A DNA stretch of 38,049 nt from a virus (taxonomy: Duplodnaviria > Heunggongvirae > Uroviricota > Caudoviricetes), in IMG/VR virus record IMGVR_UViG_2802429217_000005, positions 1-38,049 of that record, one strand, 5' to 3'. The stretch's first letter is position 1. Each line of letters begins with the position of its first letter. The position numbers and the translations under genes are program-made. The notes below the pieces were generated by a model. The model worked only from the letters and a program-made list of their open reading frames with translations. It was not told the origin of the DNA and did not search any database. Positions 19,106 to 33,415 of this stretch are shown in pieces.

Positions 19106-20191
19106 TTAGCTCCTGTTCTTATCTAATTGTGCATTTCGCAATTTATCGTTCAGCACCAATATTTCACCAACTGTTTGTTCAAAACGCCCGGACTCAAGTT
19201 CAACCCCAATCGTGCGACGCCCCAATCCCATTGCTGCTTTTATTGTTGCCCCCGATCCCATAAAAAAATCCGCAACCACATCCCCCGGACGACTGCTGGC
19301 AGAAATTATCTGACGCAACATATCCGCCGGTTTTTCGCAGGGATGCTTACCCGGATAATACTGTACGGGCTTATGCGTCCAGACATCCGTATAAGGAACG
19401 GCGGCCGATACAGAAAAATAACGCCGCAGAGATTTGTATTCCTCAAGCAGACTGGCATATTGCCGGTTCAGTTCACTGTATGTGCTGACCAGCAGTTGGT
19501 GTGGCGTTGCCAGCTCCCCACGCTGGTGTTTTTCTTCTGCAACACGCGCGAACAGCGCCTGCAGTTTTCTGTAATCAGCTTCGTTCGGTAACTGCCACTG
19601 ACTGGTACCAAACCAGTGCGACACCATGTTTTTCTTTCCGGTGGCTTCCGCTATCTGTTTGGACGTTATTCCCAGTGATTCACGCGCATCACGAAAGTAA
19701 AAAATCAGCGGGGCCATGACGTGTTGTTTAAGCTCGCGCTCCTTTGCCGCATAGCCGGCATTTTTTGGCTGATATGGCCCCTGATAATGTTCGGCAAACA
19801 GAATGCGCTCTGTTGCCGGGAAATACGCCCGCAGGCTTTCTTTGTTGCACCCGTTCCAGCGTCCGGACGGCTTCGCCCAGATAATGTGGTTCAGCACATT
19901 AAAGCGCTCACGCATCATGATTTCGATATCAGATGCCAGGCGATGACCACAAAACAGGTAAAGACTTCCGGCAGGCTTCAGTACCCGCCAGAACTGAGCC
20001 AGACACTGGTCCAGCCATTTCAGGTAATCATCGTCTCCCTTCCACTGGTTATCCCAGCCCTCGGGCTTCACTTTAAAATATGGCGGGTCTGTGACTATAA
20101 GATCGACAGAGTTTTCCGATAAGGTCTGGATAAATTCCAGGCAATCGGTGTTGATTAACTCACAACTGGATATTTTTACAGTATCAACCAT
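19106..20191 (-). CDS. orphan DNA methyltransferase (N6-adenine/N4-cytosine class, DPPY motif)
   Basis: 361-aa ORF with motif IV DPPY near the N-terminus (LIVTDPPYF) and the AdoMet-binding motif near the C-terminus (DFFMGSGAT); no adjacent restriction endonuclease gene recognised. Confidence 0.85.
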   Translation of the reverse strand: MVDTVKISSCELINTDCLEFIQTLSENSVDLIVTDPPYFKVKPEGWDNQWKGDDDYLKWLDQCLAQFWRVLKPAGSLYLFCGHRLASDIEIMMRERFNVLNHIIWAKPSGRWNGCNKESLRAYFPATERILFAEHYQGPYQPKNAGYAAKERELKQHVMAPLIFYFRDARESLGITSKQIAEATGKKNMVSHWFGTSQWQLPNEADYRKLQALFARVAEEKHQRGELATPHQLLVSTYSELNRQYASLLEEYKSLRRYFSVSAAVPYTDVWTHKPVQYYPGKHPCEKPADMLRQIISASSRPGDVVADFFMGSGATIKAAMGLGRRTIGVELESGRFEQTVGEILVLNDKLRNAQLDKNRS

Positions 20192-24503: not shown

Positions 24504-24659
24504 TTACTCCTCAGGTTCGTAAGCTGTGAAGACAGCGACCTCCGTTTGGCTGGTTCGGATTCGTACCTCACAGAGATCTTTCCTCGTTACCAGTGCCGTC
24601 ACAATGACGGTTAAACAGATGACGATCAGGGCGATTAACATCGCCTTTTGCTGCTCCAT
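24504..24659 (-). CDS. hok: Hok-family type I toxin (HokD/RelF-like)
   Basis: 51-codon ORF missed by the >=60-aa track: MEQQKAMLIALIVICLTVIVTALVTRKDLCEVRIRTSQTEVAVFTAYEPEE, near-identical to E. coli HokD as recalled; AGGAG 9 nt upstream. Confidence 0.85.
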   Translation of the reverse strand: MEQQKAMLIALIVICLTVIVTALVTRKDLCEVRIRTSQTEVAVFTAYEPEE

Positions 24660-24841
24660 AGCCTGCTTCTCCTAGCCTTTCGGCACGTAAGAGGCTAACC
24701 TACATTTGTGAGACATAGATTGGGCCTCAGATTAATGTTAAGCGTCTTGCAGGACGCTTAATGTTAACTGTGCTTTTCTTTATCTGCCTTTTGGTGTTCA
24801 TGCCTGAGACAGATAGCCTCAATCACCCGCAGCGATTTTAC

Positions 24842-30467: not shown

Positions 30468-30893
30468 TTAGTGCATCACCACAGCATTTCCTGCCGGGCC
30501 ACCACGATTCATCTGATTGAAACCGGCGATTGCCACTGCGACAAAATCATCAGCGTCTCTCACCAGTCGTTCCCGCGTCTCCACCAACTCCCGAAAATAG
30601 ACTGAACTGTGGCTGCGCATCCGGGCCACCAGCAGAGGTGGCATTGCTTTTTCGATCGCTGGTAACAACGCCTGAATTTTTTCAACCGCATCAGTGGTGT
30701 CTTTCTCCACCCAGCGGAAAATTTTCTGGGTATTACGAGCCAGGGCTTCTGGATGGCTGTCGTCGTACAGTTCCGGGGACGTCATTCCCAGTTCGAAATA
30801 AGCCCTGGTTATCTTGGCCGCCGGAACTTTTTCACCATCCGGACGCGCCCAGGCATTCATAGCCATGCGGATGTGTTCATGCTTGATTTTCAT
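30468..30893 (-). CDS. YdaT-like protein in the cII position
   Basis: 141-aa ORF starting MKIKHEHI..., directly downstream of the Cro-like gene (ATGA overlap); resembles Rac YdaT as recalled. Confidence 0.45.
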   Translation of the reverse strand: MKIKHEHIRMAMNAWARPDGEKVPAAKITRAYFELGMTSPELYDDSHPEALARNTQKIFRWVEKDTTDAVEKIQALLPAIEKAMPPLLVARMRSHSSVYFRELVETRERLVRDADDFVAVAIAGFNQMNRGGPAGNAVVMH

Positions 30894-31117
30894 GAATCAT
30901 TCTTTCCTTCGTTCAAGGTGTTATCCTTCTTTTTGTAAAGTTCTGGGTTCAAAGATAATTTTCCCTTGGAGTATGCGGCAGCTTCCGCGGCCCTCCCCTT
31001 GGGAACTATTTCACCAGGACGTTTGCGCCACATGTATATAGCTTCACGGGTTATCCCATAAAAATCGGCAACTCTCTGAACAGAGCCAAAAAACTGGACA
31101 AGTTCATCAACTCGCAT
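30890..31117 (-). CDS. Cro/DicC-like small HTH regulator
   Basis: 75-aa ORF MRVDELVQFFGSVQRVADFYGITREAIYMWRKRPGEIVPKGRAAEAAAY... resembling DicC/YdaS-type Cro analogues; AGGAGGG Shine-Dalgarno; divergent from the repressor gene. Confidence 0.6.
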   Translation of the reverse strand: MRVDELVQFFGSVQRVADFYGITREAIYMWRKRPGEIVPKGRAAEAAAYSKGKLSLNPELYKKKDNTLNEGKNDS

Positions 31118-31209
31118 TTCACCCTCCTAAAACTAAGTATTTTTAGATTAAAGGATAATTTTTTTTAGGTCAATGCAATCTAAAATAATTTATATTCAAT
31201 TCACGGGAG
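31118..31209. promoter_or_regulatory. divergent promoter/operator region between the cro-like and repressor genes
   Basis: 92-bp AT-rich spacer with dyads CTAAAACTAAGTATTTTTAG (31127-31146) and TTTTAG-N11-CTAAAA (31163-31185); candidate leftward -35 TTGACC / -10 TAATCT and rightward -10 TATATT. Confidence 0.5.
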
Positions 31210-31860
31210 ATGATGATGGAAAGCCTTGGCATTAGGCTTAAGAGACTCAGAAAAGACAAGGGACTGACCCAAGTCGAACTGGGCAAGCTTTCTGGCGTAA
31301 CAGGGGTAACTATAGGGTACTGGGAGAAAGACCTAAACGAACCCGGTAGCAAAGCTCTTAGTAAATTAGCCCAAGCACTAGGAACTACTGAGTCCTATCT
31401 CCTATATGGAGTATCGTCTACTGAACCTACCCTTGTGCAGAACAATTCAGGCACCCAAATCCCCTATCTTTCATGGGGGGAAGCAATTTCTTTCCTAATT
31501 TTAGAAGGAGAGAAAACTATGGGAAATGCCGACAGAATCACCACATTCTTTGACGTCAAGGAGGGGGATTTTGCCGTTTCAATGCCTGATGACACTATGC
31601 ACAACCCATCAGGGTCGCCAAGCATTCCGGTTGGTGCCACAGTGATCATGAGGCCTAGAGAAAAATATAAAAATGGTAGTATCGTCGCTGTAATAGTCCC
31701 AGATCCGCTTACAAACGAACCATCTATGACTATAAAAAAATTAGTCATCGACGGAAAACTCGTGTATTTAAGCCCCCTCAATCCTCGCTATCAATCGTCC
31801 TTACTGACACCTGAATGTAAAATTGTTGCTGTAGCAAAAGGTGTGCAGTTCAGCCTATAG
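31210..31860 (+). CDS. CI-like prophage repressor (HTH-XRE N-terminus, S24 LexA-type peptidase C-terminus)
   Basis: 216-aa ORF; N-terminal LKRLRKDKGLTQVELGKLSGVTGVTIGYWE HTH; C-terminal FAVSMPDDTM ... IVAVIV ... MTIKKLV consistent with an S24 Ser/Lys autoprotease; GGGAGA Shine-Dalgarno. Confidence 0.85.
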   Translation: MMMESLGIRLKRLRKDKGLTQVELGKLSGVTGVTIGYWEKDLNEPGSKALSKLAQALGTTESYLLYGVSSTEPTLVQNNSGTQIPYLSWGEAISFLILEGEKTMGNADRITTFFDVKEGDFAVSMPDDTMHNPSGSPSIPVGATVIMRPREKYKNGSIVAVIVPDPLTNEPSMTIKKLVIDGKLVYLSPLNPRYQSSLLTPECKIVAVAKGVQFSL

Positions 31861-31883
31861 CTTCCACTTTGTTTTTCAATCAG

Positions 31884-31908
31884 AGGTCGGCTTTGTCGAC
31901 CTTTTTTT
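31884..31908 (+). terminator. candidate intrinsic terminator after the repressor gene
   Basis: AGGTCG-GCTTTGT-CGACCT hairpin followed by TTTTTTT. Confidence 0.6.
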
Positions 31909-31930
31909 AAATATATCTAGATCACACTTG

Positions 31931-31962
31931 ACTATAAAACTAAATAGATTTAGTTTTATAGT
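31931..31962. repeat. 32-bp palindrome with 15-bp perfect arms (candidate operator)
   Basis: ACTATAAAACTAAAT-AG-ATTTAGTTTTATAGT; arms perfectly complementary apart from the central dinucleotide; overlaps a TTGACT hexamer. Confidence 0.45.
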
Positions 31963-33357: not shown

Positions 33358-33415
33358 TTTTCTGGTGACGTTTGGCGGTATCAGTTTTACTCCGTGACTG
33401 CTCTGCCGCCCTTTT
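33358..33415 (+). ncRNA. dicF: DicF small RNA
   Basis: TTTCTGGTGACGTTTGGCGGTATCAGTTTTACTCCGTGACTGCTCTGCCGCCC followed by TTTTT matches the recalled 53-nt DicF sequence and its terminator. Confidence 0.8.

What the first reader, a model, noticed from the sequence alone, without database searches (positions are those of the whole stretch)
31127..31185. Operator-like dyads in the divergent immunity promoter region
CTAAAACTAAGTATTTTTAG and TTTTAG-N11-CTAAAA overlap the candidate -10 and -35 elements of the leftward cro promoter and sit near the repressor promoter. This suggests a lambda-like bistable switch with its own operator specificity.
Basis: partly seen in the sequence, partly recalled or inferred. 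Interest (0 to 1): 0.4.

Follow-up and report, generated by a model that had tools for sequence, protein, structure and literature searches.

The report
P22-type prophage operators, mis-paired by reader
The repeated TTTTAG/CTAAAA words are real and lie in the control region between a prophage repressor gene and its cro gene, but they are halves of three ordinary P22-style 14-bp operator sites (CTAA-N6-TTAG) rather than the two dyads proposed, so this is a conventional phage switch whose recognition sequence I did not find described in the papers I could search.

Summary
The four CTAAAA/TTTTAG hexamers are at the stated coordinates and are far more clustered than chance allows: 4 of the window's 13 copies fall within 59 bp, P about 1e-4 under local-composition shuffles.

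The proposed pairings are not the functional units. I compared 28 non-redundant related immunity regions from Escherichia, Yersinia, Xenorhabdus, Proteus, Rouxiella, Enterobacter, Serratia and phage mEp460.
- The conserved dyad is CTAA-N6-TTAG, present in 27 of 28.
- CTAAAA-N8-TTTTAG occurs only in this window.
- TTTTAG-N11-CTAAAA occurs in 3 of 28.

The region holds three sites: O1 31133-46, a weak O2 31155-68, and O3 31180-93. They are colinear with P22 OR1-3 and interleaved with a conserved leftward promoter (-35 TTGACC, -10 TAATCT). The same dyad recurs after the repressor gene: a perfect copy at 31940-53 and a weak one at 31907-20, flanking a PL-like promoter for a ydfA/DicF/dicB operon.

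A weight matrix trained only on relatives ranks O1, O3 and OL1 first, second and third in the 38-kb window.

The repressor N-domain and Cro are P22 c2/Cro homologues. The consensus differs from those of P22, DicA and CP-933P.

Protein binding is inferred, not shown. Verdict: an ordinary lambdoid (P22-type) switch and a new member of a known kind.

The parts
30890..31117 (-). cro gene (75 aa, P22_Cro family)
   Evidence: Pfam PF14549, E 1.2e-9. It aligns with P22 Cro and with Cro homologues next to the related repressors. RefSeq names it 'Cro/CI family transcriptional regulator'.
31127..31132 (.). It lies in the cro leader next to the Shine-Dalgarno sequence (GGAGG on the - strand) and is not a conserved operator half.
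   Evidence: It is substituted in EDL933 and shifted by 1 nt in 606R7/L004, although their repressor N-domain and Cro are identical. CTAAAA-N8-TTTTAG is found in 1 of 28 intergenic regions. The weight-matrix score of the 14-mer starting here is -4.0 bits.
31133..31146 (.). O1 (OR1 equivalent): CTAAGTATTTTTAG. It covers the PR start region and overlaps the -10 by 2 nt.
   Evidence: Best weight-matrix hit in the whole window at 24.8 bits; the maximum over 200 null sequences was 17.0. The CTAA and TTAG columns are invariant or >=90% in 26 relatives. Its position matches P22 OR1.
31145..31150 (-). PR -10 candidate TAATCT (TAATAT in relatives)
   Evidence: It lies 17 nt from the -35. The A42/T43/T44/A45 columns are conserved in alignment A5. 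It falls below the threshold of the consensus scan (8 of 12 matches, so no hit). This part is inference.
31155..31168 (.). O2 (OR2 equivalent): ATAATTTTTTTTAG, a weak site filling the PR spacer and abutting the -35
   Evidence: 5.5 bits, rank 6 of 38,030 positions. Relatives have the same position occupied by CTAA-N6-TTAG or one-off variants (e.g. L008, L019, L027). P22 OR2 shows the same overlap with the -35.
31168..31173 (-). PR -35 TTGACC
   Evidence: The TCAA columns (TTGA on the - strand) are invariant or >=90% in 26 relatives. P22 has TTGACT at the homologous place.
31180..31193 (.). O3 (OR3 equivalent): CTAAAATAATTTAT, next to the repressor gene
   Evidence: Second-best weight-matrix hit in the window at 22.5 bits. 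Relatives conserve CTAAGATAACTTAG here.
31181..31196 (+). Candidate PRM -10 elements: TAAAAT 31181-86 (inside O3) or TATATT 31191-96. The question is unresolved.
   Evidence: TAAnAT is invariant in all 26 aligned relatives, and TAAGAT sits at the same operator positions in P22 OR3. TATATT would place the O2 centre at about -41.5 and the O3 centre at about -16.5. There is no good -35 for either. This part is inference.
31216..31860 (+). cI/c2-like repressor (214 aa; alternative ATGs at 31210 and 31213)
   Evidence: HTH_3 E 2.1e-12 and Peptidase_S24 E 1e-10. The N-domain's closest solved relative is the P22 c2 N-domain (1adr, E 2.5e-7). The start at 31216 follows RefSeq.
31882..31904 (+). Intrinsic-terminator-like hairpin plus T-run after the repressor gene
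   Evidence: Terminator scan: 10-pair stem and a T run.
31907..31920 (.). OL2 candidate: TTAAATATATCTAG (weak), upstream of the PL -35
   Evidence: -0.3 bits, rank 16. Positional homologue of CTAAGnnnnGTTTG, which lies 33-36 nt upstream of OL1 in relatives and corresponds to P22 OL2.
31928..31956 (+). PL-like promoter: -35 TTGACT 31928-33, 17-nt spacer, -10 TAGTTT 31951-56
   Evidence: TTGACC/TTGACT lies 6 nt upstream of OL1 in most of the 17 relatives aligned there (14 have a clear TTGAC-type hexamer, the rest TTGCAA/TTGCAT or none); the -10 is TAGATT in 14 of them. P22 PL has the same layout. Downstream lie a DUF1391/ydfA homologue, DicF and dicB.
31940..31953 (.). OL1: CTAAATAGATTTAG, perfect 6+2+6 dyad within the PL spacer and -10
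   Evidence: Third-best weight-matrix hit in the window at 18.9 bits. It is the only zero-mismatch match to CTAAATNNATTTAG. The homologous site is conserved in relatives and in mEp460.
30468..30900 (-). YdaT (cII-like) gene, with a YdaT-box over its start codon at 30883-30900
   Evidence: PF06254, E 3e-10. On the - strand the box reads ATGATTCATGAAAATCAA, identical to the footprinted Rac YdaT-box (PMC11879457).

Best explanation
The intergenic region is the right operator (OR) of a P22-type lambdoid immunity module.

It contains three tandem dyad operators with the family consensus A-n-CTAAG-N4-CTTAG-n-T. The invariant core is CTAA-N6-TTAG, and in this E. coli lineage most halves read CTAAA.
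- O1: 31133-46
- O2: 31155-68 (weak)
- O3: 31180-93
- Centre-to-centre spacings are 22 and 25 bp.

The inferred mechanism is as follows. Dimers of the c2-like repressor, and of the P22-like Cro, bind these sites through their helix-turn-helix domains. The outer bases are read directly and the A/T-rich central 4 bp indirectly, as in P22. Occupancy of O1 and O2 blocks the leftward promoter PR (-35 TTGACC 31173-68, -10 TAATCT 31150-45), which drives cro, ydaT and the replication genes. Occupancy of O3 shuts the repressor's own promoter.

A second set of sites, OL1 31940-53 and OL2 31907-20, flanks a PL-like promoter just after the repressor gene's terminator. It controls the ydfA-DicF-dicB-exonuclease-xis-int operon.

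Shown here: site positions, symmetry, conservation, and homology of the proteins and of the layout. Inferred: actual binding, the order of occupancy, cooperativity, activation of PRM, and bistability.
For: 1. An unbiased scan of all half-site/spacer combinations over 28 non-redundant related intergenic regions puts CTAA-N6-TTAG first: 27 of 28 loci and 49 sites, with CTAAG-N4-CTTAG in 18 of 28.

2. In the 26-sequence alignment (mean column identity 58%), the invariant columns are the CTAA/TTAG arms of O1 and O3, the TCAA of the PR -35, the -10, and TAAnAT in O3. Perfect palindromes occur, such as CTAAGTTAACTTAG in L027.

3. A weight matrix built only from relatives outside the window's own group ranks 31133 (24.8 bits), 31180 (22.5) and 31940 (18.9) first, second and third of 38,030 positions. 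The null maximum was 17.0. O2 ranks 6th.

4. The same dyad recurs as a pair flanking a TTGAC-type -35 (TTGACC in most) 30-90 nt after the repressor stop codon in most relatives, and in the isolated phage mEp460.

5. The recognition helix is nearly invariant across the family (GV[TS][GD]V[TA][IV]GYWEKD), which matches the invariant operator arms.

6. The repressor N-domain is closest to the P22 c2 N-domain and Cro belongs to the P22_Cro family. P22 OR and PL read from the P22 sequence have the same order, the same overlap of OR2 with the PR -35, spacings of 23 and 25 bp, and OL1 6 nt after the -35 when trimmed to 14 bp. P22 repressor contacts positions 2-7 and 12-17 and reads positions 8-11 indirectly (PMC4267663). 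That matches the variable, A/T-rich central 4 bp seen here.

7. Between E. coli haplotypes whose repressor gene is only about 87% identical, the block 31133-31199 differs at 2 of 67 positions.
Against: - No binding or transcription data exist for this repressor or Cro.
- O2 and OL2 are weak in this window (5.5 and -0.3 bits) and rest mainly on positional homology.
- The generic sigma-70 scan finds no promoter in the intergenic region. PR scores 8 of 12 and PRM cannot be placed with confidence.
- The relatives are phylogenetically related, so conservation counts are not independent events.
- O3 in this lineage has a degenerate right arm (TTAT).
- The O1-O2 spacing is 22 bp here against 24 bp in other genera, so cooperative geometry may differ.
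Confidence: 0.8

Rival explanations
1. One reading: a 20-bp dyad CTAAAA-N8-TTTTAG (31127-46) and a 23-bp dyad TTTTAG-N11-CTAAAA (31163-85), each bound by one repressor dimer.
For: Both are exact inverted repeats in this window (I7 and I3), and the hexamer cluster is non-random.
Against: - The two units have different spacers and opposite arm orientation, so a single dimer geometry cannot fit both.
- The first occurs in 1 of 28 related regions and the second in 3 of 28.
- The 31127 arm is lost or shifted in relatives with identical DNA-binding domains.
- The second unit spans the conserved -35 hexamer.
- Neither pattern recurs at the PL region, whereas CTAA-N6-TTAG does.
Confidence: 0.04
2. Only the strong dyads (O1, O3, OL1) are true operators. 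The O2 and OL2 positions are merely AT-rich promoter spacer, so the switch works with two OR sites rather than three.
For: O2 scores 5.5 bits and OL2 -0.3 bits. In many relatives the O2 position matches only 5-6 of the 8 arm bases. DicA was reported to bind only one of three sequence-predicted sites (PMC3441716).
Against: - O2 still ranks 6th of 38,030 positions.
- It sits at a fixed distance from O1 and O3 in all relatives.
- It is a full CTAA-N6-TTAG in L008, L019 and L029.
- It corresponds exactly to P22 OR2, a real operator.
- Weak middle sites filled by cooperativity are the rule in lambda- and P22-type switches (textbook knowledge).
Confidence: 0.13
3. The repeats are asymmetric direct or inverted copies of a roughly 16-nt element (TAAnTnTTTTTAGRT, three copies), or they are generic AT-rich curved DNA, UP-element or nucleoid-protein sites rather than dyad operators.
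For: Three copies of TAAnTnTTTTTAGRT lie at 31134, 31156 and 31178(-). The pattern has 7 matches in the window against 2.0 expected. The region is 74% A+T.
Against: - In relatives the flanks of that 16-nt element are not conserved, while the dyad arms are.
- Perfect 14-bp palindromes occur.
- Two of the extra matches to the 16-nt pattern are simply the OL sites.
- Composition alone does not give the hexamer cluster.
Confidence: 0.03

Closest known systems
Phage P22 immC region: c2 repressor, Cro, OR1-3/PR/PRM and OL/PL
   Same: - The repressor N-domain is homologous (1adr, E 2.5e-7), and the Val of the recognition helix and the Glu equivalent to P22 E44 are kept.
- Cro is in the same Pfam family.
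- There are three dyad operators between the divergent genes, with 22-25 bp centre spacing.
- OR2 overlaps the PR -35, and OL1 lies 6 nt after the PL -35.
- The AAG-N4-CTT core is shared, flanked by A at position 1 and T at position 18, with a variable A/T-rich central 4 bp (PMC4267663).
   Different: - Positions 3-4 read CT(AA) instead of T[T/A](AA).
- No window site matches the P22 consensus within 3 mismatches, and P22 operators score only 2-6 bits with the family matrix, so the two are probably heteroimmune.
- Recognition-helix residues equivalent to P22 N32, S36 and Q37 are G, G and Y.
- The S24 domain has Thr for the nucleophile Ser and no Ala-Gly.
- The cII position is filled by a YdaT-type protein instead of P22 c1.
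- The repressor gene has a leader with a Shine-Dalgarno sequence.
Qin prophage DicA/DicC with dicBp (E. coli K-12)
   Same: Same gene order. A repressor and a divergent Cro-like gene are followed by a PL-like promoter that drives ydfA-dicF-dicB (bioRxiv 10.1101/2023.04.14.536235). DicA also lacks an Ala-Gly cleavage site.
   Different: DicA is 135 aa with no S24 domain. Its operator Oc is TTGTTAGTCATAACTAACAA, which has the TTAG...CTAA orientation (PMC3441716). Nothing like it is found in the window.
CP-933P PaaR2/YdaS/YdaT switch (E. coli O157:H7) and Rac RacR/YdaS/YdaT
   Same: Divergent repressor and Cro-like genes followed by a YdaT/cII-like gene. Multiple operators overlap PR and PRM, and there is an OL/PL set. 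Bistability was demonstrated experimentally for CP-933P (PMC8630535). The YdaT-box is identical to the Rac one (PMC11879457).
   Different: PaaR2 and RacR are short repressors without an S24 domain. The CP-933P repeats have the consensus GTTTAGTAA in four 18-bp palindromes (PMC8630535), and this pattern is absent here. Cro here is P22_Cro rather than a clear YdaS family member.
Phage 434 operators (ACAA-N6-TTGT)
   Same: A 14-bp dyad with four conserved outer bases and six less conserved inner bases, in three tandem copies (own knowledge).
   Different: The arm sequence is unrelated. The repressor is closer to P22 c2 than to 434 cI in the solved-structure search.

Membership tests
P22-type (c2/Cro) lambdoid immunity region | Repressor with an N-terminal Xre/cI-type HTH domain homologous to P22 c2 | tested here: met
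   HTH_3 E 2.1e-12. The best solved relative is the P22 c2 N-domain at E 2.5e-7, aligned over residues 4-67.
P22-type (c2/Cro) lambdoid immunity region | Divergently transcribed Cro of the P22_Cro family | tested here: met
   PF14549, 38.2 bits against a cut-off of 30.2. It aligns with P22 Cro.
P22-type (c2/Cro) lambdoid immunity region | Three tandem dyad operators between the two genes, overlapping PR and PRM | tested here: met
   O1, O2 and O3 lie at 31133, 31155 and 31180, are conserved in position in 26 relatives, and are colinear with P22 OR1-3. O2 is weak.
P22-type (c2/Cro) lambdoid immunity region | Second operator set at a PL promoter beyond the repressor gene | tested here: met
   OL1 31940-53 and OL2 31907-20 flank TTGACT. 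The layout is conserved in relatives, mEp460 and P22.
P22-type (c2/Cro) lambdoid immunity region | Same operator sequence as P22 (homoimmunity) | tested here: not met
   No operator here matches ATTTAAG-N4-CTTAAAT within 3 mismatches. P22 sites score at most 5.6 bits with the family matrix. This is a related but distinct specificity.
P22-type (c2/Cro) lambdoid immunity region | Repressor and Cro physically bind the operators; cooperative binding; PRM activation | not testable with these tools
   This needs EMSA, footprinting and reporter assays.
LexA/cI-type self-cleaving S24 repressors | Ser-Lys catalytic dyad and an Ala-Gly (or Cys-Gly) cleavage site | tested here: not met
   The S24 domain is present and the Lys is kept. 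However, the residue aligned to lambda cI Ser149 is Thr (DDTM against GNSM). The position where distant homologues have VQAG reads GEAI.
DicA/DicC (Qin) operators | Oc-type site TTGTTAGT-N4-ACTAACAA | tested here: not met
   0 matches at up to 3 mismatches. Oc sequence taken from PMC3441716.
CP-933P PaaR2/YdaS operators | 18-bp palindromes with half-site GTTTAGTAA | tested here: not met
   0 matches at up to 3 mismatches. Consensus taken from PMC8630535.

The most novel reading that the evidence does not exclude
The repressor's S24 domain may be a dead pseudo-peptidase: it has Thr in place of the nucleophile Ser and no Ala-Gly site. This holds across the window's clade, which is present in hundreds of E. 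coli genomes, O157:H7 included. If so, this P22-type switch, which also gates a DicF/dicB cell-division-inhibitor operon from its PL-like promoter, would be uncoupled from RecA. It would then flip by another route, either an unidentified antirepressor or stochastic Cro-driven bistability, as reported for Qin DicA/DicC.
Probability: 0.35. Interest if true: 0.4.

Novelty: new member of a known kind. Interest (0 to 1): 0.22.

Why it matters
The result gives a usable operator definition, CTAA-N6-TTAG (18-bp form A-n-CTAAG-N4-CTTAG-n-T), for a repressor/Cro family. That family is common in E. coli prophages, including those of O157:H7, and occurs in Yersinia, Xenorhabdus, Proteus, Serratia, Enterobacter and the isolated phage mEp460.

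It allows immunity groups to be predicted among co-resident prophages. It also identifies which promoter controls a DicF/dicB operon in these strains.

The family is a natural specificity variant of the structurally well-studied P22 c2-operator pair: recognition-helix residues N32/S36/Q37 become G/G/Y, and the operator TT becomes CT. That could serve studies of direct and indirect readout.

It does not reveal a new kind of mechanism.

Tried and rejected
- **Generic promoter scan.** The sigma-70/terminator scan of 30800-31500 found nothing, so PR and PL had to be placed by conservation and by homology to P22.
- **Asymmetric repeat.** My first idea was three copies of a 16-nt element, TAAnTnTTTTTAGRT. 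I dropped it once relatives showed clean 14-bp palindromes.
- **Window-only consensus.** My first consensus, CTAAAT-NN-ATTTAG, gave 4 hits at up to 2 mismatches, all in OR or OL. It was only marginally enriched (7 of 100 shuffles), and at 3 mismatches it was not enriched at all. I replaced it with a matrix trained on relatives.
- **Known operator consensi.** DicA Oc, P22 and the CP-933P inverted repeat have no match at the sites.
- **Literature.** Full-text searches for six operator strings and for the mEp phages found no description of these operators.
- **YdaT sites.** A YdaT-box-like site was sought in the intergenic region. None was found at up to 2 mismatches, only the one over the ydaT start codon.
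- **Induction route.** I looked for an SOS box or antirepressor that could explain induction of a possibly non-cleavable repressor. The only finding was a CTG-N10-CAG at 20164-83 next to a DNA methylase gene, and no antirepressor domain appeared in the ORFs scanned. This is inconclusive.
- **Half-site versus helix residue.** I looked by eye, for a link between G or A at half-site position 5 and Gly or Asp in the recognition helix. No consistent pattern emerged.
- **PRM.** It could not be placed. Two candidate -10 hexamers remain.

Full report
**Setting**

The window is an E. coli prophage. The 1,051 nt around the finding are 100% identical to strain ARS-C301 and 88-89% identical to prophages of O157:H7 strains and to phages vB_EcoM-606R7 and vB_EcoS-689R5. 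Left of about 29440 the gene content differs from ARS-C301 (one search compared), so only the immunity region is shared.

The finding lies in the 98-nt gap between two divergent genes.
- A 214-aa repressor at 31216-31860 (+) carries HTH_3 and Peptidase_S24 domains.
- A 75-aa Cro of the P22_Cro family lies at 31117-30890 (-).
- Cro is followed by a YdaT (cII-like) gene and a replication gene.
- Downstream of the repressor are a terminator-like hairpin, a DUF1391/ydfA homologue, sieB, DicF RNA (33360-33411), dicB, an exonuclease, xis and int.

This gene order matches the Qin dicA-dicBF region and, more generally, lambdoid immunity regions.

Yes. CTAAAA lies at 31127 and 31180, and TTTTAG at 31141 and 31163. 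The hexamer and its complement occur 13 times in 38 kb, below the shuffle expectation of 20, yet four copies fall within 59 bp. No other hexamer family clusters more densely. Shuffling the AT-rich intergenic region itself gave four or more copies in 0 of 20,000 mononucleotide trials and 2 of 20,000 Markov trials.

**Are the proposed dyads the units?**

No. Three lines of evidence point elsewhere.

First, E. coli relatives have a repressor N-domain (residues 1-68) and a Cro (residues 1-65) essentially identical to the window's, with one or two conservative substitutions near the repressor's N-terminus and none in its helix-turn-helix. They differ exactly at the 31127 hexamer: EDL933 reads CCCAAAT, and 606R7 has a 1-nt insertion. 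The block 31133-31199 changes at only 2 of 67 positions, although the repressor gene is only about 87% identical.

Second, I fetched 28 loci from other species that encode homologues at 32-93% identity. Their recognition helix is almost invariant (GV[TS][GD]V[TA][IV]GYWEKD). An unbiased enumeration of every half-site and spacer combination over the 28 non-redundant upstream regions puts CTAA-N6-TTAG first, in 27 of 28 loci with 49 sites. CTAAG-N4-CTTAG is found in 18 of 28.

Third, the alignment of 26 regions has a mean column identity of 58%. Its invariant columns are the CTAA and TTAG arms of two sites, the TCAA of a -35 element, a -10 element, and TAAnAT inside the site nearest the repressor gene. 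Perfect palindromes such as CTAAGTTAACTTAG occur.

**What is there**

Three 14-bp dyads lie in the intergenic region.
- O1: CTAAGTATTTTTAG, 31133-46
- O2: ATAATTTTTTTTAG, 31155-68
- O3: CTAAAATAATTTAT, 31180-93
- Their centres are 22 and 25 bp apart.

With two flanking bases the family consensus is A-n-CTAAG-TTAA-CTTAG-n-T.

A weight matrix trained only on relatives outside the window's own group ranks O1 (24.8 bits), O3 (22.5) and a third site at 31940-53 (18.9) as the top three of 38,030 positions. The best score in 200 Markov-randomised windows was 17.0. O2 ranks sixth at 5.5 bits.

In this lineage the commonest half-site is CTAAA. This is why a reader sees CTAAAA/TTTTAG repeatedly. Three of the four hexamers are the right half of O1, the right half of O2 and the left half of O3. 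'Dyad 2' therefore bridges two neighbouring operators across the -35 hexamer. 'Dyad 1' pairs O1's right half with a non-conserved word in the cro leader, next to the Shine-Dalgarno sequence.

**Promoters**

On the minus strand, TTGACC (31173-68), a 17-nt spacer and TAATCT (31150-45) form the cro promoter. The generic scan misses it because it matches only 8 of 12 positions. However, the TTGA and TAAT bases are invariant or nearly so in relatives, where the -10 reads TAATAT. O2 fills the spacer and touches the -35, and O1 overlaps the -10 by 2 nt and covers the start region.

The repressor's own promoter cannot be placed with confidence.
- TAAAAT (31181-86) lies inside O3. The corresponding TAAnAT is invariant in every relative, and P22 OR3 has TAAGAT at the same operator positions.
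- TATATT (31191-96) would give lambda-like geometry, with O2 centred near -41.5 and O3 near -16.5.
- Neither has a recognisable -35, as expected for an activator-dependent promoter. This last point is inference.

**A second operator set**

After the repressor stop codon and a terminator-like hairpin (31882-31904) the sequence reads: TTAAATATATCTAG (31907-20), ATCACAC, TTGACT (31928-33), ATAAAA, CTAAATAGATTTAG (31940-53), TTT.

Most relatives and phage mEp460 have the same layout: a weak dyad, 7-8 nt, a TTGAC-type -35 (TTGACC in most), 6 nt, a strong dyad, then ATT. The -10 TAG(A/T)TT overlaps the strong dyad. This is the PL/OL equivalent and the counterpart of Qin dicBp (bioRxiv 10.1101/2023.04.14.536235). 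Finding the same dyad at both early promoters is what a repressor operator predicts. A chance repeat does not predict it.

**Comparison with known systems**

The repressor N-domain's closest solved relative is the P22 c2 N-domain, and Cro aligns with P22 Cro.

I read the P22 immC sequence directly. I assigned the operator names from the dyad symmetry and from my own knowledge of the literature.
- OR1: ATTAAAGAACACTTAAAT
- OR2: ACTAAAGGAATCTTTAGT, whose last bases overlap the PR -35
- OR3: ATTTAAGATGACTTAACT
- Their centres are 23 and 25 bp apart.
- PL reads TTGACC-ATTT-AATTAAGAAGTCTTAAAT.

Trimmed to 14 bp, every element is colinear with the window. The AAG-N4-CTT core and the outer A and T are shared. 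Positions 3-4 differ: CT here, T[T/A] in P22.

P22 repressor contacts positions 2-7 and 12-17 and reads positions 8-11 indirectly, aided by Glu44 (PMC4267663). Here the central four bases are likewise variable and A/T-rich, and the equivalent Glu is retained. The Val of the recognition helix is kept, while the residues aligned to N32, S36 and Q37 are G, G and Y.

No window site matches the P22 consensus within three mismatches, and P22 operators score only 2-6 bits with the family matrix. The specificity is therefore related but distinct.

DicA's Oc (TTGTTAGTCATAACTAACAA; PMC3441716) and the CP-933P PaaR2/YdaS repeats (GTTTAGTAA; PMC8630535) are different and absent. Full-text searches for the operator strings and for the mEp phages found no prior description.

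**Mechanism**

By homology to P22 and lambda, repressor dimers at O1/O2 and at OL1/OL2 would shut PR and PL. Occupancy of O3 would limit repressor synthesis. Cro would use the same sites to shut the repressor promoter, giving a two-state switch. The CP-933P module, which shares the YdaT component, has been shown experimentally to be bistable (PMC8630535). None of this was or could be tested here. The sequence evidence establishes the sites, their symmetry, their conservation and their relation to the promoters.

**Side observations**

- The S24 domain has Thr where lambda cI has Ser149, and the Lys is retained. It lacks the Ala-Gly site that more distant homologues keep. RecA-dependent self-cleavage is therefore doubtful for this clade. 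I found no antirepressor or convincing SOS box in the part of the window I checked.
- The ydaT start codon is covered by ATGATTCATGAAAATCAA, identical to the footprinted Rac YdaT-box (PMC11879457).

**Verdict**

This is a conventional P22-type switch and a new member of a known kind, of modest interest.

Noticed in passing
window 31216-31860 (repressor C-terminal domain): The S24 peptidase domain has Thr (DDTM) where lambda cI has the nucleophile Ser149 (GNSM). The expected Ala-Gly cleavage site reads GEAI, and the catalytic Lys is kept. Close relatives share this, while distant ones (Proteus and Morganella, and the P0018-P0020 group at 42-45% identity, about the same distance as mEp460's repressor) have GDSM and VQAG. 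The repressor may not self-cleave.
   Followed up: partly
window 30883-30900: On the minus strand this reads ATGATTCATGAAAATCAA, identical to the DNase-footprinted YdaT-box of the Rac prophage, and it covers the ATG of the YdaT/cII-like gene. It is probably a YdaT autoregulation site.
   Followed up: partly
window 33360-33411 (+), with 31928-31956: A full-length DicF sRNA (Rfam, 76.7 bits) and dicB lie downstream of the PL-like promoter. The operators OL1/OL2 therefore probably control a cell-division-inhibitor operon, as DicA does in Qin.
   Followed up: partly
window 24657-24826 (-): A sok antitoxin RNA (Rfam RF01794, 81.8 bits), indicating a hok/sok-type toxin-antitoxin locus in the prophage.
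   Followed up: no
window 31147-31154, against the relatives in alignment A5: The E. coli lineage has a 2-bp shorter gap between O1 and O2 (centres 22 bp apart against 24 bp in other genera). This turns the PR -10 from TAATAT into TAATCT and makes it overlap O1.
   Followed up: partly
L010, L011, L014, L026 (Rouxiella and related), upstream of the repressor: These loci keep O1 and O3 but have no cro gene next to them. A different, larger ORF lies further upstream, and three of them (L011, L014, L026) carry an extra full or near CTAA-N6-TTAG site about 116 nt upstream of the repressor start; L010 does not.
   Followed up: no
window 20164-20183: AACTGGATATTTTTACAGTA fits the minimal LexA-box form CTG-N10-CAG and lies at the start of a DNA methylase ORF (19106-20191, -). 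It might be an SOS-regulated gene, or it might be chance.
   Followed up: no
window 31210-31218: Three consecutive in-frame ATG codons lie at the repressor start. RefSeq uses the third, and the EDL933 and 606R7 variants have only two.
   Followed up: no
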